A DNA stretch of 32,000 bases. It comes from Candidatus Saccharimonadota bacterium (lineage in GTDB: Bacteria; Patescibacteriota; Gracilibacteria; BD1-5; UBA6164). The stretch lies in assembly GCA_965227835.1 (NCBI GenBank), contig OZ245768.1, positions 240,001 through 272,000 on the forward strand, written 5' to 3'. This document shows, one piece after another, positions 1,606-29,676 of the stretch; position 1 is the stretch's first letter, and each line of letters opens with the position of its first letter. The position numbers and the translations under genes are program-made. Under the pieces are notes generated by a model. That model had not been told where the DNA came from, did no database searches, and worked only from the letters and a program-made list of their open reading frames with translations.

Positions 1606-2115
1606 ATGACTTTATCACTAAATTTAGATCAAGAAGTCAAAAAGATGCAACTTAGATATAATATGTCTAAGATTTTTAGATATTTGCCTTTAGTTATAAT
1701 AGGATTAAGTGCTTTTTCTTTTCTATTAATGACTGTAAATATCTTCCTACTTTTTTTCTTCAACTACTCTTTGATAGGAGAGTATGTTATTTATTCTATA
1801 GAACCTCAAATAATTTTATGTATTTTGTCTACAATTATTATATATTATGGTTCTTATTGGGATAGAAAAACAATATTAATGGTAAATGCTTTATATCGAA
1901 GTTTCTTAGGACAGCTGGTATTTAAAAAAATCAAAGCTACAAGTAAGCAACTGGAAAATATAAGAAAAATAATAATTTGTAAACATCCATTTTTATTTGA
2001 AGGAGAAATAGCTTCAAAAAAAATTTGTTCTTACTCTAATATTATAGGTATGTTTACAATTTTGATGCCATCTATAAATGTCTTACTAGTTGCACTAACT
2101 ATGTATCTAATGTAG
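1606..2115 (+). CDS. hypothetical multi-pass membrane protein (169 aa), UGA-free, SD-led
   Basis: Uninterrupted ORF even in the standard code. AAAGGAG at 1591-1597 lies 8 nt before the ATG. About 3 hydrophobic helices. All 6 Gly codons are GGN. TAG stop, followed by the hairpin CCCCG-GCCTGAAGGCA-CGGGG plus a T-run at 2173-2200. Confidence 0.7.
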   Translation: MTLSLNLDQEVKKMQLRYNMSKIFRYLPLVIIGLSAFSFLLMTVNIFLLFFFNYSLIGEYVIYSIEPQIILCILSTIIIYYGSYWDRKTILMVNALYRSFLGQLVFKKIKATSKQLENIRKIIICKHPFLFEGEIASKKICSYSNIIGMFTILMPSINVLLVALTMYLM

Positions 2116-2159
2116 TTTTAAAAACCCTTGTTCTATTAAAAAATAGAGTAAAAAAGTTT

Positions 2160-2740
2160 TAGCTTTTCTTCTACCCCGGCCTGAAGGCACGGGGCTTTTA
2201 TTTGTACTGAAATTTAAAGCTCTATCTCTTCAATCTTATTCTCTTCTTCTCACTGTTGTTCCACATAATTAGATATTATTTCTCAATTTATCTCTCATAC
2301 ACTAGATACAAAATATCATACTCACCATATATTTCATGTCTTCCAATACCATCTCTTAATTTCTTTGTAAAAATAGCTCTTTATTGCCTTAGAACTTTCT
2401 CTCTTTATATGTCATACTATTGTAGATATTGGTTTAGTTAACGGTATCCTACAATACATATGTACATGATCTTCTTCCATTCATATCTTTATTATTATTA
2501 CTCATAGCTTTTTACTTATTCATCTTATGATCTTTTCCAATCTATCTTGTATCTCTTTTGTCATGAATGGATTTCTGTATTTTGTTATCCATACTATATG
2601 GTATCTGACATCATATGTCGCATGACTACTTTTTTGGTATTTCATTCTCTCTAGTGTTAGTTTTTAACACTATTTTATTTATTCTATTGATTTTTTACAC
2701 TTTTTTCTTTAGAATCGGCCTGAAGGCAACGGGGTTTAAA
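2160..2740 (-). mobile_element. IS200/IS605-family element no. 1 (tnpA only); boundaries approximate
   Basis: The Y1 transposase gene is flanked by two related subterminal hairpins: CCCCGGCCTGAAGGCACGGGG at 2173-2193 and CGGCCTGAAGGCAACGGGG at 2705-2724. There are no terminal IRs, as expected for this family. The exact ends cannot be fixed without an empty site. Confidence 0.6.
2214..2645 (-). CDS. tnpA: IS200/IS605 family Y1 (HUH) transposase TnpA, 143 aa
   Basis: Translation with UGA=Gly: MKYQKSSHATYDVRYHIVWITKYRNPFMTKEIQDRLEKIIRGISKKLGVIIIKIGMEEDHVHMYCRIPLTKPISTIVGHIKRESSKAIKSYFYKEIKRWYWKTGNIWGVGYFVSSVGEINGEIISNYVEQQGEEENKIEEIEL. It carries the family motifs YHIVW.TKYR, HVH and GYFVSSVG. 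Confidence 0.85.
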
Positions 2741-2896
2741 ACCCTATGTCACAACACATCTCATTTATTCAATTTCTATCACTTACACCTTCGGTGTCTT
2801 AACTATCTAAAGATAGGGGTTTTTATCCCGATGTGTTGAAATAAATTTGACTAATTTTGAATAATTCTATAAATTAATTAAATCAGTTTTAGGTTT

Positions 2897-3050: not shown

Positions 3051-3359
3051 CTATTTATTGGAATAATACTTCCATGCAAATTTAGCTAAAAAGAAAGTAC
3101 AAACGGCAAATATTAAAAAGTATGTAAAACTTGAAAGAATATATGCTAAGACTATCCCTATTAAATATCCTATAAATAAAGAATATTTTTTCTTAACTAT
3201 AAAATAGTCTAAAACAAGTACAATTAATCCAAAGAATATTAGTCCAATAAGATTAAAAAAAACTAAGAATAAAGCTCCTAAAAATAAGCCCCCAAAAAAA
3301 GTATCTGATAAATCTATGTTTTTCTTAATACTACCTATAGTTTTGAGTAAAGAATCCAT
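3051..3359 (-). CDS. hypothetical small membrane protein (102 aa), UGA-free, SD-led
   Basis: AGGAGG at 3367-3372 (minus strand) lies 7 nt upstream of ATG 3359. Sequence begins MDSLLKTIGSIKK, followed by about 3 TM helices. All 8 Gly codons are GGN. TAG stop. The track ORF extends to 3428, but that upstream extension has no ribosome-binding site (RBS). Confidence 0.6.
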   Translation of the reverse strand: MDSLLKTIGSIKKNIDLSDTFFGGLFLGALFLVFFNLIGLIFFGLIVLVLDYFIVKKKYSLFIGYLIGIVLAYILSSFTYFLIFAVCTFFLAKFAWKYYSNK

Positions 3360-6416: not shown

Positions 6417-7029
6417 AATAACTTTATTTTTGAAATAAATTTTTAAAAGTTATTATCCTGTATATAATCACGATGTATTAGAATTTTATTGCCTAGAATC
6501 TAAGAATCGTTTTTTTAATTATTACATTTAATATTTCTGCCAAAATACTTATAATGTTTCTATTTAAAGGTATATACAAAATATTTGACTTTTAATTTTT
6601 TATATACTTAATTTATTTTCTTGTGCACATATTACAACACAGAAATATAAACTTGTCAAATATTATATTTATTTTATAAATATGTTTTGAAATTAAAAAA
6701 TGACTCTTCCCTATCTGTTGAGAAAAATCAATTAATTTAATTAATAAAATATATTTACTTAATGTCAATATTATTGTATAATTAAATTATACAATAGCAA
6801 AGTATATTAGTCAATAGTTTAAAAATTTAATAAAAAAGAAGTAAAAACTAAAAATAATTTCCTCCTATACCCTTTTCCAGATACTATTTTACCCCCTATG
6901 TTTTATTCTCTCTATTCTATATCCCTTCTGTTCTATCCCCTACTATAAGAAACATTAAATAAAAAGATGGAATAAATGTTAATTATATATAGAGTATTAT
7001 GAAGAAAATCAAGTGAGATAGAGAGTGAA

Positions 7030-7345
7030 TGTCCACTCTCCTCCAAAGGAGAGGGTTAGGGTGAGGGTAAGTTGGAGAGGGTTAGGGTGAGGTATTGGTC
7101 GGCTTAGTGTTAGAGCTTTACGGAAAAAGCTAGGTTAAACTGTATGGAGTAAAGTCTTAGTAGAGTTAGAATGAAATCTGCTCTACTCCCCTCTCCTCTA
7201 AGGAGAGGGGCTGGGGGTGAGGTTGAGATGTAGAGGGTTAGGGTGAGGTTGAGAGGATCTATAGTGAGGTTGAGCCGAAGAAGGTTAGGATGAAGGCTGA
7301 GGGTTAGGGTGAGGGCTTGCTCGAAGAGGGTTAGGGTGAAGTCTC
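7030..7345 (+). repeat. G-rich hairpin and 16-mer repeat island (non-coding)
   Basis: GAGGGTTAGGGTGAGG occurs at 7051, 7077, 7233 and 7299, with a 15/16 copy at 7326, plus degenerate copies (GAAGGTTAGGATGAAGG at 7279; GGGGCTGGGGGTGAGGTTGAG at 7207). There are two hairpins: CTCTCC-TCCAAA-GGAGAG (7036-7053) and CCCCTCTCCT-CTA-AGGAGAGGGG (7187-7210). Local GC is roughly twice the background. Stops occur in all frames. Confidence 0.8.
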
Positions 7346-7415
7346 GCTCGGATCAAGATTAGTACTCAAATTAAAATTAACTTTTGGTTTAAAATTATTA
7401 AATACTTGTTTTCTT

Positions 7416-18884: not shown

Positions 18885-19792
18885 CATTTAATAAATAATG
18901 CTTAGCAAATTCCATTCAATTATCAAAAGTAACAGATTTAATTCATATATCATCTTTAACTCAAGCTATTAGATTAATTATATTTTCACTTGATTTATCT
19001 TTTATTTTAAAAATTTTAGGTAACCTAGTCTTTCTATCAACCAATGTAAGTATAGCTCATTTAAATCATTTTTTAGAAACAATTAAATCAGCTTCAATAT
19101 GTCATTTTTCTTCTCTGTTATTTATTGTTTCAGGTCTATTTTTAATACTAACTCTATTTTTAATTTTCACTCTTTCTGTTTGTTGTTTTTTCTTTCTATA
19201 ACCTTTATGTTTATATAATAATAGTTCTTTATATTTATTTCACATACCAGTTTCTAGCCAAGAATATATACTTGTATGGGAGATATGTTTCTTTTTATCT
19301 GTTTGAGTATTATTCCGTTTCTTAGCAATTGTTTTTGGGGACATTTGTATTTCTGTTATTGATAGTTGTTCTATTATGAAATTTTTCATATTAGTATTCA
19401 TATTTATCTTCATTGATTGAGTTTTTGTTAGCCATCGTCTTTGATATGATTTGATTTCTGCTTCTAGTGCTAAATATACTTTTTTATTGTTTCATCGTTT
19501 TTTTACTGAATTTCTGTATATCTCTCTGCTTATTGTTGATTCTGATCTTTTTAGTATTGATGCTATATCTTTTTTCTTTAATCATTTATTTAAATGAAAT
19601 TCAATACTTTCTCTCTCTTGGAATATTAATTGTCAGTACATATCTTATTATATTAGAAAATAATGTTATTACCCTACGGGGAATACTATATTTTCTTCTC
19701 TTTTAATTGCACTTCATTTCTTACTTTGGGACAAAATAATCATAACTACTTGTTTATTAAAATTTTTTAGAAAACCAAAAAAAGGAGACATT

Positions 19793-20425
19793 ATGATAGA
19801 TAATCCTGATTCCAAAATAATACATAGGAAAAAAGATTATTGGTTTATTTTTAAGAAATGCTTTAAAATATTTTTACAAATAGTAATAAGTGGTATTGCA
19901 ATTTGGGTTGCATCAATAGATGAATTGTATGGAACAAATGGTAAAATACTTTTTTATATAGTAAGTACAATTGTTACTCTTACATTAACATTTTTTATAT
20001 TTAGAACTAATATAATCAAAAAACAAAGAAGGCTTATATTTTTAAACATTTCAATCCAACTTTCTGCTCTATTATTTTTAGCTATTTATTATAATAGTGA
20101 AATGCAAAGCAGTAAAAAAACTGAAATTGAAACTGCAAAAGTTGAACCTGCAAAAGTTGAACCTGTAATGTTTACTTATGAAGATGAGGTATCACGTATT
20201 AGTTCATGTTGTGAAAGATACTTAATTAGGCTTAAAAATTATAATGGAAAAGACTTCCATATATTTATTAGTAATATAAATCCAGAAGTACCTATAACTC
20301 TACCAGGTGATACAGTAAAAATAAAAGCTAATATTACAAAAGATGGATATATGAATGTCATATATTTTAACAATTTAGACATTTATACACAAGGAGAAAA
20401 CGAGGAATCTAATGTAACAAAATAA
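19793..20425 (+). CDS. hypothetical membrane protein with a C-terminal soluble domain (210 aa), UGA-free, SD-led
   Basis: AAGGAG at 19782-19787 lies 5 nt before the ATG. About 3 TM helices, a short AKVEP-AKVEP repeat, then a roughly 80-aa hydrophilic domain. All 7 Gly codons are GGN. TAA stop and a terminator follow. Confidence 0.7.
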   Translation: MIDNPDSKIIHRKKDYWFIFKKCFKIFLQIVISGIAIWVASIDELYGTNGKILFYIVSTIVTLTLTFFIFRTNIIKKQRRLIFLNISIQLSALLFLAIYYNSEMQSSKKTEIETAKVEPAKVEPVMFTYEDEVSRISSCCERYLIRLKNYNGKDFHIFISNINPEVPITLPGDTVKIKANITKDGYMNVIYFNNLDIYTQGENEESNVTK

Positions 20426-20462
20426 AGCTATATTTAAATGATTTAGCTTGAAAAAATATTAA

Positions 20463-20488
20463 AGTCCCTCATTTGGGGGACTTTTTTA
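20463..20488 (+). terminator. rho-independent terminator
   Basis: AGTCCC-loop-GGGACT followed by TTTTTT. Confidence 0.6.
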
Positions 20489-20535
20489 AAACTTAAATTA
20501 ATACAAAACTAGAATAATAATACTAAAAAGATTAT

Positions 20536-23316: not shown

Positions 23317-23723
23317 AAAAAAGTATAAAATGTCCACATATTACACACAAAACTCCCCAGTTTTTTTAATAAAAAAGTCTAAAAAAAGCTTGACAGAGGG
23401 GATAATCTAATAATTGAAGTAATATATTATTATTACTTTTTTTTATGCAAGAAATACAAAAAATAATAAACAAAGAACTATGATATTTAATGAAATATGA
23501 ATGCAAAAATGATAAAAGATTTATTAAAGAGTTTTTTTGAGATATAATAAGGCTAAGAACAACAATAATGAACAAATTATGATTTTGAAAATATAAAAAT
23601 CCCAACAAAATGAGTGAAAAAATAAAACATTTCTTTGAAAAAGATAGTTTTAAAAATTTTAACCTAAAAGTAGAAAAAAGATGTTTTTCTATGTTATGAA
23701 AAATAAATAAAAATGATTATATA

Positions 23724-24929
23724 GGGACCTCTGCAAAAAGATAGATTTAAATTACAAAAATATAATAAAAAGATTAAAATATGATAAATATTTTAATTTT
23801 TTTTTAATGATTATGTCACCATTTAAAGAACAACAAACATTTTTGAATTATTTCCAAAATGAGTTATGAATTACAAGAACAGAAAAGTTTCTAACAAAAT
23901 TAGATAAAGTAGTCCCATGGGAATCAATATCAAATAAAATTAATTTATCTAGAGAAATATCAGATTGATGAGTTTGAAGACCAAGAATGGAAATACAAAA
24001 AATGTTAAAAATACTATTTCTTCAATGATTATATGGATTATCAGATCCGGAAATAGAAAATCAAATAAGAGACAGAAATAGCTTTCAAAAGTTTCTATGA
24101 ATATCTGAATCTAAAGATATACCAGATGAAACAACAATATGTAGATTTAGAAATGAATTATCAGAAAACTGAAGTCAGGAAACTATATTTACAATGACTC
24201 AATTTATTTTAGCTGAAATGTGATTTACAGTAGAAAAGTGATTTATTCAAGATGGTACTATAATAGAATCACCAAAATGAAGAAAGAATAATAAATGAGA
24301 AAATACAAGAGATAAGGAAGCTAGTTTTACAAAGAAGAATTGAAGAAGTTATCATTGATATAAAGCTCATATTGAAACAACAAAGAGAGGAGACTTTGTA
24401 ATGAATACAACATATACAACAGCTAAGATACATGATTCACAATTATCTGATACTTTAATGACTTGAGATGAGAGTGAAGAGGCATATTGAGATAGTGCCT
24501 ATATAAGTAAAGATAAAATAAGATTTTTAGATGAGTTATGAATTAAGTGAGAGTTCAATGAAAGATGATCTAGAAATAATCCGTTGACTTCTTATCAAAA
24601 AGAACAAAATAGAATTAAATCTACTATTAGGGCAAGAGTAGAACATCCTTTTTCTATTTTAAAGGCTAAATATTGAAATTATAAAACAAGATATAGATGA
24701 TTAGTTAAGAATGCTATGCACTGGTTTTTATCTTGTGCTATTTATAATTTTGAACTATTGGCAAGGAGATATATATAGCTTTCTAATAGGTGAATTGTGC
24801 CTAAATTTGGAAATTATACCTAAAAAAAGGCATAATTCATAGAAATTATCTTATATATTCTTCAAAAAAAGTGATTTTTATTCAAAATCACTTTTTTCTT
24901 GTTCTTTTCAACAATATTGCAGAGGTCCC
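23724..24929 (+). mobile_element. IS-D (IS5 family), 1206 bp, intact, nested in IS-A copy 2
   Basis: Perfect terminal IRs GGGACCTCTGCAA...TTGCAGAGGTCCC. A 4-bp TSD TATA lies at 23720-23723 and 24930-24933. The empty site is visible in IS-A copies 1 and 3. Confidence 0.88.
23807..24778 (+). CDS. IS5-family DDE transposase (323 aa)
   Basis: With UGA=Gly the translation is MIMSPFKEQQTFLNYFQNELGITRTEKFLTKLDKVVPWESI...GRPRMEIQKMLKILFLQGLYGLSDPEIENQIRDRNSFQKFL...IQDGTIIESP...YKAHIETT...AYGDSAYISK...IRARVEHPFSILKAKYGNYKTRYRGLVKNAMHWFLSCAIYNFELLARRYI. This is the typical IS5-group architecture. Confidence 0.85.
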
Positions 24930-26014
24930 TATAGTTTTTGATGAAGTTGATATAGCAAAACAATACTCAAAGAAGCTAGAAAATCTATCTAAAGTAAGAG
25001 ATTGAAGTACTTGAAATATAGTTTCTTGATATATGTATCATTGAGTAAGTATAAATTGAATTCCTGTAATACTTGAGTATGAAGATTTAACTAATAAATT
25101 TAAATCTGAATATTTTTGAAAATTAATTAAAAAAGTAGAAGATTATACTAAATGAAAGTGAATATATGTATATGATGCTTGATATGATATAGCATCATAT
25201 ATAGAATTTTTAAATAATAGTGTAAATAGATGGATAATAAGAGCTAAAAAGAATAGGATATATTTTGATTTAAAAACCGATAAATATTTAAAATTAAAGG
25301 AATTTAAAGATTGAGTTCATAAGGTAAGAATTAATTCAGTTAATGAATCAATATATCTTCATATTAGATCAAATCCTAAATTTCCTGAACCAATGAGGAT
25401 ATTATCAAATTCAAGAAAAACAGATATAGAAGAATATAAACAAAGACGGGAAATAGAGACAATATTTAAAACTATGAAGCAGGAGTTTCAGCTTGAGAAA
25501 CTTCAAGCTAAGAGTTTAATAGTATTTAAAAATTTTGTTTCTACTATACAGTTGGCTATGGCTTTGACTAGGACTATATATAAAAAGAATAATTCTTTTT
25601 GTGAGAATCAGAGGTTTATACTTTCTTCTAGATTTAAATCTAGATTTAGAGATTATACAAAATCTCGATGAATAACTATGAATTCTAATTCTATTGTTAA
25701 ATTTATATCTTATTGTTTAACAAAGTTGTATAAACCTCCTAAAAAACATATTAAAAATTTAAATAATAAAAACAACCTACATTTCCCTCAGTTATCCTTA
25801 TTCTCCTATGTCGATTTTATAAAAAGTGGGTAGTTTTGAGATTACAAAAAACAACTTATTTAATGAAACTCTGAAAAATTAAGATTTTGCAGAAAAAGTA
25901 ATTCTTTTATTTTTATTAGGCAAAGAGCTTTAGCTCTTTGATTTTATATCTTCATCAACAGATGGCTTTAGCCATTTGCTATTGTAGGAAATTTTTCTTC
26001 TTGAAGAAAATTAC

Positions 26015-26148: not shown

Positions 26149-26622
26149 ATGAAATATTTTTGTGTTAACTTCAAATATATGCTTTTGCTTGCTGTACTAA
26201 TTTCATTTTTTATAAGTAAGCTAAACATTAGTTTTGAAGAAACTGTGGTTTATTCTGCAGTAGTTTTTACAACAATGCTTGTTTTAGCTTTAATACCGGC
26301 TTCAATCAAATTATTTAGTAAAAAAAGTTCCGATACATTGCTTCTACCTGTTTTTCAATGTATTGGTGCATTATTTTTACTGTATCCTATTTCTCTATAT
26401 ATAGTTAGGGAAATGGTTCCAGAAATTGGGCAATATTATACAAACTATATAATTATTGAAAGTTTGGCACTTTTATTTGCTTCAGTATTTGCATTAGTAT
26501 GGTTAAAGACAAGTAAAGAAGTTTCTAATACTGAATTTTGGGAAAATTTCCTAAAAGAAATTCCTTTATTATTCATAGTATTTGAAGCTTCATTTTACCT
26601 GAAAAGGAGACAAACAGCATAA
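26149..26622 (+). CDS. hypothetical multi-pass membrane protein (157 aa), UGA-free, SD-led
   Basis: AAGGAG at 26136-26141 lies 7 nt before the ATG. About 4 TM helices. TAA stop. A very strong terminator follows immediately. Confidence 0.7.
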   Translation: MKYFCVNFKYMLLLAVLISFFISKLNISFEETVVYSAVVFTTMLVLALIPASIKLFSKKSSDTLLLPVFQCIGALFLLYPISLYIVREMVPEIGQYYTNYIIIESLALLFASVFALVWLKTSKEVSNTEFWENFLKEIPLLFIVFEASFYLKRRQTA

Positions 26623-26624
26623 AA

Positions 26625-26668
26625 AAATCCCCTTTTAAGTTATTCTTAAAAGGGGATTTTTCTTTTTT
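26625..26668 (+). terminator. strong rho-independent terminator
   Basis: A 15-bp stem AAATCCCCTTTTAAG / CTTAAAAGGGGATTT plus a T-run. IS-B copy 2 begins at the very next base. Confidence 0.8.
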
Positions 26669-28491: not shown

Positions 28492-29676
28492 CCCAAAGTA
28501 AGAAATGAAGTGCAATTAAAAGAGAAGAAAATATAGTATTCCCCGTAGGGTAATAACATTATTTTCTAATATAATAAGATATGTACTGACAATTAATATT
28601 CCAAGAGAGAGAAAGTATTGAATTTCATTTAAATAAATGATTAAAGAAAAAAGATATAGCATCAATACTAAAAAGATCAGAATCAACAATAAGCAGAGAG
28701 ATATACAGAAATTCAGTAAAAAAACGATGAAACAATAAAAAAGTATATTTAGCACTAGAAGCAGAAATCAAATCATATCAAAGACGATGGTTAACAAAAA
28801 CTCAATCAATGAAGATAAATATGAATACTAATATGAAAAATTTCATAATAGAACAACTATCAATAACAGAAATACAAATGTCCCCAAAAACAATTGCTAA
28901 GAAACGGAATAATACTCAAACAGATAAAAAGAAACATATCTCCCATACAAGTATATATTCTTGGCTAGAAACTGGTATGTGAAATAAATATAAAGAACTA
29001 TTATTATATAAACATAAAGGTTATAGAAAGAAAAAACAACAAACAGAAAGAGTGAAAATTAAAAATAGAGTTAGTATTAAAAATAGACCTGAAACAATAA
29101 ATAACAGAGAAGAAAAATGACATATTGAAGCTGATTTAATTGTTTCTAAAAAATGATTTAAATGAGCTATACTTACATTGGTTGATAGAAAGACTAGGTT
29201 ACCTAAAATTTTTAAAATAAAAGATAAATCAAGTGAAAATATAATTAATCTAATAGCTTGAGTTAAAGATGATATATGAATTAAATCTGTTACTTTTGAT
29301 AATTGAATGGAATTTGCTAAGCATTATTTATTAAATGATATATGAATAGATACTTACTTTTGTGAACCTTATTCTTCTTGGCAGAAGTGAAGTGTTGAGA
29401 ATTTAAATAGGATTATCAGGAGATTTTTTCCTAAATGAACTATATTTGATTATGTAAGTGATGAAAAAATAAAAAGTATTTGCGATATATTAGCAAATAC
29501 TCCTAGAGAAATACTTTGATTTATTTCCCCTAATCAAGCACACTTTTCACAATCTTAATGTTGTATTTGGAATTATAACAAAATTTTTTATAATCTCAAA
29601 AATAAAAAATTTCTTAATGCTATATTTTCTTCTTTAAGTTCATTTAAAAAATTGCACTTCGGGGTTTAATTCAGGT
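28492..29676 (+). mobile_element. IS-C copy 2 (IS30 family), 1185 bp, intact
   Basis: A 2-bp TSD CT lies at 28490-28491 and 29677-29678. The imperfect terminal IRs share GAAGTGCAATT. It was inserted exactly at the IS-B right-end/flank junction. Confidence 0.85.
28581..29558 (+). CDS. IS30-family DDE transposase (325 aa)
   Basis: With UGA=Gly: N-terminal HTH (FQERESIEFHLNKGLKKKDIASILKRSESTISREIYRN), then [67 protein letters not shown] and NTPREILGFISPNQ. Confidence 0.88.

What the first reader, a model, noticed from the sequence alone, without database searches (positions are those of the whole stretch)
19775..20490. Third UGA-free, SD-led membrane ORF, abutting the end of the IS30/IS5 nest, with a soluble C-terminal domain
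**Seen in the sequence.**
- ORF 19793-20425 starts 61 nt after the IS-C copy 1 TSD.
- It has AAGGAG-5nt-ATG, no TGA (7 of 7 Gly codons are GGN) and its own terminator (20463-20488).
- It encodes about 3 TM helices, then a tandem AKVEP-AKVEP repeat and a roughly 80-aa hydrophilic domain (SRISSCCERYLIRLKNYNGKDFHIFISNINPEVPITLPGDTVKIKANITKDGYMNVIYFNNLDIY). To me this domain looks beta-rich, like a small binding or OB-like fold.
- It is the largest member of the UGA-free class and the only one with a non-membrane domain that could be modelled.

**Inference.** It is a candidate accessory or surface function that travels near IS ends. Function unknown.
Basis: partly seen in the sequence, partly recalled or inferred. 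Interest (0 to 1): 0.68.

Follow-up and report, generated by a model that had tools for sequence, protein, structure and literature searches.

The report
UGA-free, Shine-Dalgarno-led surface-protein gene cassette
In a bacterium that reads the stop codon UGA as glycine and normally uses no ribosome-binding motif, this fast-evolving membrane-protein gene belongs to a small set of genes that avoid UGA completely and carry a classical ribosome-binding site, and the mobile element next to it is a recent chance insertion.

Summary
Window 19793-20425 is a real 210-aa gene with AAGGAG-5nt-ATG, no in-frame TGA, 7/7 Gly as GGN, three TM helices, a polymorphic AKVEP repeat, a beta-rich C-terminal domain and a hairpin terminator.

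The host is a ~24% GC Gracilibacteria genome using code 25, where TGA is 72% of Gly codons. In about 90 kb of this lineage, 66 ordinary genes have no GGAG Shine-Dalgarno (SD) motif and at least one TGA. Five genes have a strong SD, and exactly those five are TGA-free (Fisher p = 8e-8). Apart from Gly, their codon usage matches the host's. TGA is avoided only in frame.

The link to insertion sequences (IS) is refuted. Two relatives carry the gene at the same site, still SD-led and TGA-free, without the IS30::IS5 nest. That nest is a clean insertion with a 3-bp duplication (ACA), sitting between the gene's conserved promoter and its SD.

The gene is an orphan limited to this lineage. Its ortholog is 40% identical while the neighbours are 96-99% identical. 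Topology is predicted N-in/C-out, with a low-confidence OB-like barrel outside the membrane.

Best reading: a self-contained accessory cassette for a fast-diversifying surface binding protein, held compatible with the standard code. Why SD and UGA avoidance go together is unresolved, and I found no report of it in the searchable literature.

The parts
17292..17319 (+). Putative sigma-70-type promoter of the cassette (TTGACT 17292-17297, 16-nt spacer, TATAAA 17314-17319). The IS insertion now places it 2.4 kb from the ORF.
   Evidence: Read directly from the sequence. The block is identical in L004 and about 95% conserved in L005, where the ORF interior is only 50-60% identical. TTGAC[AT] lies 74-126 nt upstream of the ATG in 4 of 5 class-B cassettes, against about 0.1 expected per 170 nt. 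Function is inferred, not shown.
17334..17336 (.). Left copy of the 3-bp target-site duplication (ACA).
   Evidence: L004 has a single ACA at 10005-10007, and the BLAST segments overlap by 3 nt.
17337..19730 (-). IS30-family element, copy 1, interrupted by an IS5-family element at 17731-18884. It is a secondary insertion into the 5' leader of the cassette.
   Evidence: Its two parts are 99-100% identical to the intact copy at 28492-29675. Pfam finds HTH_38 and rve in one transposase and DUF772 and DDE_Tnp_1 in the other. The element is absent from L004 and L005 at this site.
19731..19733 (.). Right copy of the target-site duplication (ACA).
19734..19792 (+). Proximal 5' leader with the Shine-Dalgarno motif AAGGAG (19782-19787), 5 nt before the ATG.
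   Evidence: The leader and SD are conserved in L004 and L005. The leader is predicted to be unstructured.
19793..20425 (+). UGA-free ORF of 210 aa. N-in/C-out three-TM anchor (aa 19-100), Lys/Glu/Pro-rich linker, C-terminal beta domain (aa ~125-193), and a conserved tail YFNNLDIYxQGExEESNVTK.
   Evidence: The syntenic orthologs P0002 (L004) and P0124 (L005) are both TGA-free.
20127..20165 (+). 15-nt tandem repeat encoding AKVEP. The window has 2 full copies and sister strain L004 has 3, an in-frame length polymorphism in the linker.
   Evidence: Tandem Repeats Finder. The 15-nt indel against L004 is seen.
20165..20371 (+). Predicted five-stranded beta domain (aa 125-192), OB-like at low confidence, predicted to lie outside the membrane.
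   Evidence: AlphaFold2 with a 3-sequence alignment gives pLDDT 55-69. The best Foldseek PDB matches are OB folds (CusF 1zeq, RPA14/32, Lys/Asp-tRNA synthetase N-domains), with best E = 0.014 and none at or below 0.001. Topology follows the positive-inside rule.
20461..20490 (.). Bidirectional intrinsic terminator shared with the convergent methyltransferase-like/murD unit.
   Evidence: dG -15.4 on the + strand and -11.2 on the - strand. It is conserved in L005 with a T-to-C change that turns a G-U pair into G-C. The same hairpin also follows the upstream tandem paralog in L005.
1606..2115 (+). Class-B cassette: SD-led (aaaaaggag, 8 nt, ATG), TGA-free, 169-aa membrane ORF.
   Evidence: No family hit.
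3051..3359 (-). Class-B cassette: SD-led (aggaggag, 5 nt, ATG), TGA-free, 102-aa membrane ORF with 8 Gly, all GGN. TTGACA-16-TAAAAT lies at 3485-3458.
26149..26661 (+). Class-B cassette: SD-led, TGA-free, 157-aa membrane ORF (26149-26622) with a 17-bp hairpin terminator (26623-26661).
   Evidence: The ortholog in L005 is 90% identical with dN/dS 0.22, and is also SD-led and TGA-free. It is an orphan.

Best explanation
**What it is.** The ORF is a real, lineage-restricted gene of a code-25 (UGA = Gly) Gracilibacteria chromosome, built as a self-contained cassette:
- a sigma-70-like promoter (TTGACT-16-TATAAA);
- a leader of about 70 nt;
- a strong Shine-Dalgarno site;
- an ORF with no in-frame UGA;
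- a TAA stop;
- a GC-rich hairpin terminator.

**What it encodes.** An N-in/C-out three-helix membrane anchor, then a flexible Lys/Glu/Pro linker whose AKVEP repeat number varies between strains, then a beta-barrel of about 70-85 aa (OB-like) displayed outside the membrane. I read it as a surface-exposed binding or recognition module that diversifies quickly, through contact with a partner or prey cell or through phage exclusion.

**The class it belongs to.** At least 5 cassettes in about 90 kb sampled combine a canonical SD with total in-frame UGA avoidance. The surrounding genes use no SD and encode most Gly as UGA. My preferred account: these cassettes are accessory genes kept readable under the standard code, either drawn from or exchanged with the code-11-compatible (TGA-free) mobile gene pool already described for Gracilibacteria phages, and/or held TGA-free by selection.

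**The IS.** The IS30::IS5 nest is a recent, unrelated insertion into the 5' leader. It probably uncouples the gene from its promoter in this strain.

**Shown:** gene reality, cassette anatomy, the two-class dichotomy, IS-independence, orphan status, fast divergence. **Inferred:** surface location, binding function, origin of the class, silencing by the IS.
For: **Code 25.** TGA is 335 of 464 Gly codons in the window's genes and 1000 of 1388 in 66 ordinary genes of the lineage.

**Dichotomy.** 5 of 5 genes with GGAG 5-8 nt before the ATG are TGA-free. 0 of 66 genes without an SD are TGA-free (Fisher p = 7.7e-8; details).

**Frame- and codon-specific avoidance.**
- TGA is common out of frame inside these ORFs.
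- All other codon families match the host. For Gly, GGA takes the place of TGA: 0.52 against 0.06-0.10.

**Resident gene, independent of the IS.** Syntenic orthologs sit in the IS-free contigs L004 and L005, with the empty site and a 3-bp duplication.

**Cassette structure.** Promoter, leader, SD, the last ~25 codons and the terminator are about 85-96% conserved between the window and L005, while the ORF interior is 50-60% identical. L005 also has a second cassette in tandem with the same terminator.

**Coding constraint and fast divergence (window vs L005).**

| gene | dS | dN | dN/dS |
|---|---|---|---|
| target | 0.72 | 0.44 | 0.61 |
| murD | 0.095 | 0.006 | 0.06 |
| methyltransferase-like | 0.26 | 0.021 | 0.08 |
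| U26149 (class B) | 0.20 | 0.045 | 0.22 |

Identity is 40% for the target and 96-99% for its neighbours.

**TGA kept out during divergence.** GGA<->TGA is the commonest Gly codon change in ordinary genes: 5 flips at a mean pS of 0.07. The target/P0124 pair (dS 0.72) has none at 5 conserved Gly sites. My two-state estimate from the counts gives P of about 0.02.

**Topology and fold.** Positive-inside rule in both orthologs; three helices plus five strands; weak OB-fold matches.

**Precedent.** TGA-free, code-11-compatible phages are predicted to infect Gracilibacteria (PMC10746230).
Against: - No expression data exist.
- No homolog outside this lineage was found: HMMER against 1.84 billion representatives gave only the protein itself, P0124, and a repeat-inflated hit. 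Function therefore rests on topology and a low-confidence model (pLDDT 55-69; no Foldseek hit at E <= 0.001).
- Nothing ties the cassettes to phages or plasmids: no PHROG or PADLOC hits, no relatives in IMG/VR or INPHARED, and housekeeping neighbours.
- Codon usage like the host's and a stable chromosomal position argue against recent import.
- Why a mobile gene pool adapted to an SD-less host would keep an SD is not explained.
- The class statistics come from about 90 kb of one lineage. About 90 kb from six other Gracilibacteria contigs gave at most one weak candidate.
- The estimate for selection against TGA (P ~ 0.02) rests on few events.
Confidence: 0.5

Rival explanations
1. One reading: the ORF is passenger or accessory cargo that moves with, or is functionally tied to, the ends of IS elements.
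For: In the window, all four cassettes lie within about 60-310 nt of an IS end. In sister strain L004, a different IS (IS200-like) sits just upstream of the U26149 cassette.
Against: - The gene is at the same chromosomal site in L004 and L005 without the IS. L004 shows the exact empty site, and the window shows a 3-bp duplication.
- The ORF lies outside the IS boundaries defined by the second IS30 copy.
- The L014 cassette is 5 kb from any IS.
- About a third of the window is IS DNA, and IS elements land in the long AT-rich spacers that flank these cassettes.
Confidence: 0.03
2. Translation kinetics. The cassettes are native genes tuned for very high translation. A strong SD gives high initiation rates, and UGA, decoded by the reassigned tRNA-Gly(UCA), is a slow codon that would cause ribosome queuing. 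Selection therefore removes it only from SD-driven mRNAs.
For: - SD and TGA avoidance are perfectly linked.
- Avoidance is in frame only.
- Within ordinary genes, the TGA share falls from transposases and hypotheticals (0.81-0.86) to housekeeping genes (0.63).
- The promoters look native.
Against: - No other codon family shifts. TTC, TAC, AAC, ATC and CGT are unchanged, and GGA rather than GGT replaces TGA.
- A ribosomal protein gene of the sister strain (bL25, L013 8761-9378) has no SD and 6 TGA against 4 GGN.
- The cassettes are orphans that evolve fast, which is unlike core highly expressed genes.
Confidence: 0.15
3. Code-independent regulon. The cassettes are kept TGA-free so that they stay translatable when UGA decoding fails or is attacked, for example through tRNA-Gly(UCA) depletion or a phage-borne release factor 2 that restores UGA as a stop. 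The SD gives them priority at such times. Small membrane proteins and a small soluble protein would then be stress or anti-phage effectors.
For: - TGA seems to have been kept out through substantial divergence within the lineage.
- TGA-free phages of Gracilibacteria exist and would be immune to such a switch (PMC10746230).
- Four of the five cassettes encode small membrane proteins.
Against: - Purely inferential.
- No defence-family hit and no neighbouring defence genes.
- No phage-encoded RF2 is known to me for this system.
- The target has a sizeable extracytoplasmic domain, which is unlike typical abortive-infection pore formers.
Confidence: 0.1
4. Recent horizontal transfer from an ordinary standard-code, low-GC, SD-using bacterium (for example a Firmicutes- or Fusobacteria-like partner or host). 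TGA-free status and the SD would simply be features that have not yet decayed.
For: The gene architecture is typical of low-GC Gram-positives: an extended AAAGGAG SD, 5-8 nt spacing, a TTGACx promoter and a hairpin terminator. GGA and GGT dominate Gly, as in AT-rich standard-code genomes.
Against: - The target has no homolog in any standard-code organism (exhaustive HMMER on 1.84 billion representatives), and neither does U26149.
- Codon usage cannot be told apart from the host's, including the unusual preference for ATA for Ile.
- Alleles have diverged to 40% identity inside conserved flanks in the lineage, and there is a tandem paralog. This means long residence.
Confidence: 0.1
5. De novo or spurious ORFs: T-rich intergenic DNA that happens to be open and looks membrane-like.
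For: Orphan status, small size, hydrophobic composition, no family hits.
Against: - 254 stop-free codons at 24% GC is far beyond chance.
- Background TGA frequency (0.022 per position) predicts about 14 in-frame TGAs in the 642 class-B codons; none is seen.
- dN/dS is 0.22 for U26149 and 0.61 for the target.
- The ORF is kept open in three strains despite 60% amino-acid divergence.
- SD, promoter and terminator are conserved.
Confidence: 0.04

Closest known systems
Code-11-compatible (TGA-free) phage genomes predicted to infect Gracilibacteria and Absconditabacteria (Liu et al. 2023, mBio, PMC10746230)
   Same: Genes associated with a code-25 host have no in-frame TGA and end in TAA or TAG, so they can be read under either code.
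   Different: These are single cassettes in stable chromosomal positions between housekeeping genes, not phage genomes. There are no phage hallmark genes or PHROG hits. The paper reports that integrated prophages of these hosts are TGA-rich. The strict link to a Shine-Dalgarno site in an otherwise SD-less genome is not described there.
Phage 'morons' and other autonomous accessory cassettes (promoter, gene, terminator units)
   Same: Each unit has its own promoter-like element, leader, SD and hairpin terminator, and encodes a small, often membrane, accessory protein inserted between unrelated genes.
   Different: There is no prophage context. Orthologs are syntenic in three strains. Origin from a phage is not shown.
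Membrane-anchored or periplasmic OB-fold binding proteins (e.g. CusF, 1zeq; CcmE-like anchored OB domains)
   Same: A small five-stranded beta-barrel predicted on the outer side of the membrane. CusF is the top Foldseek PDB match, and a CcmE-labelled viral model appears among the weak BFVD hits.
   Different: No sequence similarity. Matches are weak (E >= 0.014, TM 0.4-0.5) on a model with pLDDT 55-69. No metal- or haem-binding motif was identified. The anchor is three helices rather than one.
Hypervariable surface-protein genes of Gracilibacteria (Sieber et al. 2019, mBio, PMC6851277)
   Same: A repeat-containing gene in a Gracilibacteria genome that varies sharply within a population, in an organism thought to live attached to other bacteria.
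   Different: That case is one large gene with PTD 9-mer repeats and is not reported as UGA-free or SD-led. Here the repeat is a 15-nt AKVEP unit with 2 or 3 copies, and most variation is by substitution across the ORF interior.

Membership tests
IS passenger gene / composite-transposon cargo | The gene lies inside the element's terminal repeats or is found only together with the IS. | tested here: not met
   The IS30 boundaries are fixed by the second copy and by the 3-bp duplication, and the ORF lies outside them. Orthologs are present at the same site without the IS in L004 and L005.
Code-11-compatible gene sets of Gracilibacteria phages (Liu et al. 2023) | No in-frame TGA; genes end in TAA or TAG. 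| tested here: met
   0 in-frame TGA in 5 cassettes (26 Gly codons, all GGN); stops are TAA or TAG.
Code-11-compatible gene sets of Gracilibacteria phages (Liu et al. 2023) | Located on a phage genome or next to phage hallmark genes, or similar to phage proteins. | tested here: not met
   The neighbours are tRNAs, dus, murD and ung. No significant PHROG hit. No relatives in IMG/VR or INPHARED.
OB-fold domain | Five-stranded closed beta-barrel with OB topology. | tested here: inconclusive
   AlphaFold2 gives five strands between aa 125 and 192 at pLDDT 55-69. The top 50 Foldseek PDB hits are almost all OB folds, but E >= 0.014 and TM is about 0.4-0.5.
Calx-beta-like repeat proteins (the P0125 hit) | Significant similarity of a single domain to the family. 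| tested here: not met
   The E = 4.5e-12 comes from 7 identical repeats in P0125, each weakly matching aa 143-185. No Pfam Calx-beta hit for the target.
Phage moron / autonomous cassette | Own promoter and own terminator flanking a single ORF. | tested here: met
   A conserved TTGACT-16-TATAAA and a hairpin terminator. These are predictions from sequence and conservation only.
Phage moron / autonomous cassette | Resides within a prophage. | tested here: not met
   No prophage genes within the 32-kb window or in L004 or L005.
Known anti-phage defence proteins (PADLOC) | Match to a defence-system profile. | tested here: not met
   No hit for any of five class-B proteins at E <= 1.
Canonical SD-dependent initiation | A GGAG core 5-10 nt upstream of the start codon, complementary to the 16S 3' end. 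| tested here: met
   The motif and spacing are present in all five cassettes and conserved in orthologs.
Canonical SD-dependent initiation | An anti-SD (CCUCC) present and accessible in this organism's 16S rRNA. | not testable with these tools
   No rRNA gene is in the window or in any fetched locus. PMC9297842 reports frequent anti-SD loss only for a Parcubacteria subgroup, and frequent absence of bS21 in Gracilibacteria.

The most novel reading that the evidence does not exclude
A code-25, SD-less Gracilibacterium actively maintains a dedicated minority of genes written in 'universal' code and driven by a canonical Shine-Dalgarno site. This would be a second translational class kept by selection, not left over from import. 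It could serve as a regulon that stays translatable when UGA decoding is limiting or under attack. It could also serve as a shuttle gene pool that must work in both the Gracilibacterium and standard-code partners or mobile elements. The target would then be a surface-exposed, fast-diversifying member of that class.
Probability: 0.2. Interest if true: 0.85.

Novelty: new variant of a known kind. Interest (0 to 1): 0.66.

Why it matters
A change of genetic code is usually seen as a genome-wide switch and as a barrier to gene flow. Here one small chromosome holds two sharply separated sets of genes. The bulk uses UGA for most glycines and has no ribosome-binding motif. A minority never uses UGA and always has a strong one, while sharing every other codon preference with the bulk.

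If the pattern holds across the genome, it gives a concrete handle on three open questions:
- how genes cross a code boundary;
- whether UGA = Gly decoding carries a cost that selection can detect;
- how translation starts in CPR bacteria that lack SD sites.

There is also a practical consequence. Such genes are called correctly under any translation table. Their neighbours are not: the protein database used here renders UGA as Trp, which biases homology searches.

For the target itself, a rapidly diversifying, membrane-anchored external domain in a presumed episymbiont is a reasonable candidate for partner or phage recognition.

Tried and rejected
**Searches that found nothing or did not help**
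- **Sampling the source genome through IS copies in the GTDB-representative collection.** The genome is not there; only distant IS relatives came back (L001-L003). This used the single genome scan.
- **Exact look-ups of the window's proteins.** The work-around was to use code-4 translations, because the database renders TGA as W, and then to look up cluster members from sister-strain contigs.
- **Homologs of the target.** A k-mer search, exhaustive HMMER, Pfam, PHROGs, PADLOC and NCBIfam, PDB sequences, IMG/VR, JGI metagenomes and INPHARED gave nothing beyond the lineage.
- **A 22-nt leader motif searched in JGI metagenomes.** It hit three unrelated coding sequences by chance.
- **P0125, a 1073-aa repeat protein.** Rejected as a relative: its score is the sum of 7 identical weak stretches.
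- **Rfam on the whole window.** No riboswitch or leader RNA that would explain the SDs.

**Hypotheses tested and dropped**
- **Class-B proteins as paralogs of each other.** No significant similarity between them.
- **Nuclease-site avoidance.** Rejected because TGA is frequent out of frame.
- **The upstream in-frame ATG used by the L004 gene call (237 aa).** Rejected as the start: by my count from the alignment, the distance between that ATG and the SD-proximal ATG changes from 66 nt (in frame) in the window and L004 to 68 nt (out of frame) in L005, whereas the SD-proximal ATG is conserved.
- **Generality across the phylum.** About 90 kb from six other Gracilibacteria contigs (L002, L003, L006-L009) showed no clear cassette, apart from one unannotated 63-aa candidate in L007.
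Full report
**1. Setting**

The window is about 24% GC. Long reading frames appear only if TGA is read as a sense codon. In 21 confident genes, TGA supplies 335 of 464 glycine positions, at conserved Gly sites of TopA, MurD, Ung, Lgt and the transposases. This is genetic code 25. MurD homologs place the organism in the Gracilibacteria. The protein database shows the source is a 1,489,121-bp contig.

**2. The observation**

- ORF 19793-20425 encodes 210 aa.
- It is preceded by aaaaaaAGGAGacatt.
- It has no in-frame TGA, and its 7 Gly codons are all GGN. That gives P of about 1e-4 against the local 72% TGA usage.
- It ends in TAA and is followed by a hairpin (20461-20484, dG -15.4 kcal/mol, z = -4.3) and a T-run. 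The hairpin is bidirectional and also serves the convergent methyltransferase-like/murD genes.
- Hydropathy and AlphaFold2 agree on three TM helices.
- The AKVEP repeat is a 15-nt tandem repeat.
- The adjacent element is an IS30-family copy (17337-19730) split by an IS5-family element (17731-18884).
- Small correction: the target-site duplication is ACA, and the ATG lies 59 nt beyond it.

**3. The class is real and sharper than described**

I listed the 30 nt upstream of 18 ordinary genes, including topA, murD, ung, lgt, dus, the rhomboid, the M23 peptidase, hypotheticals and all the transposases. None has an SD-like motif. The four TGA-free membrane ORFs (1606, 3359, 19793, 26149) each have AAAGGAG or AGGAGGAG 5-8 nt before the ATG.

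To enlarge the sample I needed more DNA from this lineage. The source genome could not be reached. The database stores these proteins with TGA read as Trp. Using code-4 translations of the transposases, I found cluster members on sister-strain contigs from the same ENA assembly and fetched L013, L014 and L015, which add 53 kb and 46 called genes.
- Every gene there has at least one TGA and no GGAG upstream. This includes ribosomal protein bL25, with 6 TGA against 4 GGN.
- The one exception is L014 14959-14645, a 104-aa soluble orphan with aaaaaggagctaaaatATG, 0 TGA, a TTGACT box at -111 and a hairpin terminator.

| | TGA-free | contains TGA |
|---|---|---|
| GGAG SD present | 5 | 0 |
| no GGAG SD | 0 | 66 |

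Fisher p = 7.7e-8. The ordinary genes use TGA for 1000 of 1388 Gly codons. The five SD-led genes use it for 0 of 26.

**4. What kind of avoidance it is**

- TGA trinucleotides are common in the other two frames of these ORFs, 13 of them in the target. So the constraint acts on translation, not on the DNA or RNA sequence.
- Codon usage for every other amino acid matches the ordinary genes, including ATA for Ile, AGA for Arg and TTA for Leu.
- Only Gly differs. GGA rises to 0.52 from 0.06-0.10, taking the place of TGA.
- The cassettes therefore look native in composition but behave as if TGA were forbidden.

**5. Relation to the IS**

Sister contig L004 (17.7 kb) is 98-99% identical around the locus. 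It reads dus, tRNAs, target, methyltransferase-like, murD, ung with no IS. L004 10005-10007 (ACA) aligns to both window 17334-17336 and 19731-19733. The more divergent L005 is also IS-free at this site.

The nest is thus a clean, recent insertion with a 3-bp duplication. The second IS30 copy has its own 3-bp duplication, TCT.

The IS landed 17 nt downstream of a conserved TTGACT-16-TATAAA (17292-17319). It therefore lies between the likely promoter and the SD. Both transposase genes point away from the ORF. I infer that the gene is uncoupled from its promoter in this strain. That is inference only.

IS elements sit near other cassettes too, but at different sites in different strains. For example, an IS200-like element lies upstream of U26149 in L004 only. 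This fits insertion into long, dispensable AT-rich spacers. It does not fit co-mobility.

**6. Evolution of the target**

L004 differs by one amino acid (T66A) and one extra AKVEP unit.

L005 carries a syntenic ortholog, P0124 (217 aa). It is SD-led and has 10 Gly, all GGN. It is only 40% identical, while MurD and the methyltransferase-like protein are 99% and 96% identical.

| gene (window vs L005) | dS | dN/dS |
|---|---|---|
| target | 0.72 | 0.61 |
| murD | 0.095 | 0.06 |
| methyltransferase-like | 0.26 | 0.08 |
| U26149 (class B) | 0.20 | 0.22 |

The nucleotide alignment shows conserved flanks: promoter, leader and SD at one end, and the last ~25 codons plus the terminator at the other. 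These surround a divergent interior. L005 also has a second, TM-only family member in tandem, ending in the same terminator. This points to allelic diversification and duplication of a cassette within the lineage.

In ordinary genes, GGA<->TGA is the commonest Gly codon change: 5 events at a mean pS of 0.07. The target pair shows none at five conserved Gly sites, although two of them changed between GGT and GGA. A two-state estimate gives P of about 0.02. This is suggestive evidence, not strong evidence, that TGA is selected against in this gene.

**7. The protein**

The charge distribution is as follows.

| segment | K+R | D+E |
|---|---|---|
| N-terminus (aa 1-25) | 7 | 3 |
| loop 1 (aa 43-51) | 1 | 2 |
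| loop 2 (aa 71-81) | 5 | 0 |

The same pattern holds in P0124. It predicts an N-in/C-out topology, with the linker and the C-terminal domain outside the membrane.

AlphaFold2 on the single sequence left the C-terminal domain below pLDDT 50. With the 3-sequence alignment it gave five strands at pLDDT 55-69. Foldseek against the PDB returned almost only OB folds (CusF, RPA14/32, Lys/Asp-tRNA synthetase N-domains, SSBs, a designed OB barrel). The best E was 0.014 and none reached 0.001. Matches to viral models were weak and mixed.

No sequence family matches. The exhaustive HMMER search found only the protein itself, P0124, and a repeat-inflated false friend.

I therefore commit, at moderate confidence, to a membrane-anchored, externally displayed small beta-barrel binding module on a flexible linker of variable length. 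Its rapid diversification suits recognition of a partner cell, or exclusion of phage.

**8. Explaining the class**

*Recent import from an ordinary standard-code bacterium.* This is disfavoured by three points:
- neither tested cassette has a homolog elsewhere;
- codon usage is like the host's;
- divergence has taken place within the lineage.

*Tuning for high expression.* This is disfavoured by two points:
- no other codon family shifts;
- bL25 is TGA-rich and has no SD.

*De novo or spurious ORFs.* These are excluded by the missing background TGAs and by coding constraint.

*What remains.*
- The cassettes may belong to, or derive from, a gene pool that stays compatible with the standard code. 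TGA-free phages of Gracilibacteria are documented (PMC10746230).
- Or TGA-free status is maintained by selection inside the host, for a reason still unknown. Candidates are ribosome traffic on SD-driven mRNAs, or robustness to loss of UGA decoding.

I rank the first slightly ahead, but no direct phage or plasmid link was found. I found no description of chromosomal SD-led, UGA-free genes in code-25 bacteria in the searchable literature.

**9. Verdict**

- The IS-linked interpretation is refuted.
- The surface or accessory idea is plausible but untested.
- The most valuable outcome is the strict two-class structure (SD plus no UGA, against no SD plus UGA-rich) in one genome. It is statistically solid in the ~90 kb available, unexplained, and directly testable by a whole-genome census and expression data.

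Noticed in passing
window 6860-7360: An odd intergenic block upstream of lgt. A C-rich stretch (6860-6945) is followed by a G-rich region (GC 0.33, GC skew +0.44) with repeated GAGGGTTAGGGT(GAGG) units and two GC-rich hairpins (about 7038-7056 and 7188-7212). There is no Rfam match.
   Followed up: no
window 17018-17093 and 17131-17207 (- strand): ARAGORN reports two tRNAs as 'tRNA-???' with 4-base anticodons (ggaa, tttg), while Rfam scores both as normal tRNAs. They may have unusual anticodon stems or loops. A 2026 paper on 4-bp anticodon stems in bacteria (PMC13092985) surfaced.
   Followed up: no
window 29739-30081: A perfect 171-nt tandem duplication (2.0 copies, 100% identity) spans the start of the HTH-type ORF 29996-30565, next to IS30 copy 2.
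   Followed up: no
L014 14959-14645 (-) and L014 10298-10176 (-): Further SD-led, TGA-free ORFs in a sister strain. One is a 104-aa soluble orphan with its own TTGACT promoter box and hairpin terminator. The other is an unannotated 40-aa ORF (aaagaggagactaattATG) beside an IS30 copy. So the class is not restricted to membrane proteins.
   Followed up: partly
L005 8407-8733 (-): A TM-only, TGA-free paralog of the target (at least 108 aa, cut by the contig end) lies in tandem upstream of the L005 ortholog and ends with the same terminator hairpin. The cassette has been duplicated as a unit.
   Followed up: partly
protein database entries for this lineage (e.g. P0004 = L005 5413-6861): The public protein collection stores these genes translated with TGA = Trp (code 4), not Gly. 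Identities to true code-25 proteins are understated by about 5%, and exact look-ups fail unless W is used.
   Followed up: yes
window 2147-2846 versus L004 13808-14508: The IS200-like (Y1 transposase) element is at different sites in the two strains. The window carries IS5- and IS4-like insertions at 23348-25842, between ung and U26149, that L004 and L005 lack. IS turnover between near-identical strains is very active.
   Followed up: partly
window 9299-10555 and 10700-12040 (- strand): Two adjacent paralogous hypothetical genes (418 and 446 aa) share a ~75% identical nucleotide patch. Between the window and L004, one diverges much faster than the other (pS 0.23 against 0.04).
   Followed up: no
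L007 3833-3642 (-) (GCA_028689115.1, another Gracilibacteria genome): An unannotated 63-aa ORF with caggaggcagatATG, 0 TGA and 4 GGN Gly. It is a possible class-B-like gene outside the lineage studied.
   Followed up: no
L008 (ERZ25074195 ctg52610, 1,006,762 bp, circular): The same ENA sample contains a second, complete, 34% GC Gracilibacteria genome. The 21 kb sampled around its murD showed no SD-led TGA-free ORF.
   Followed up: partly
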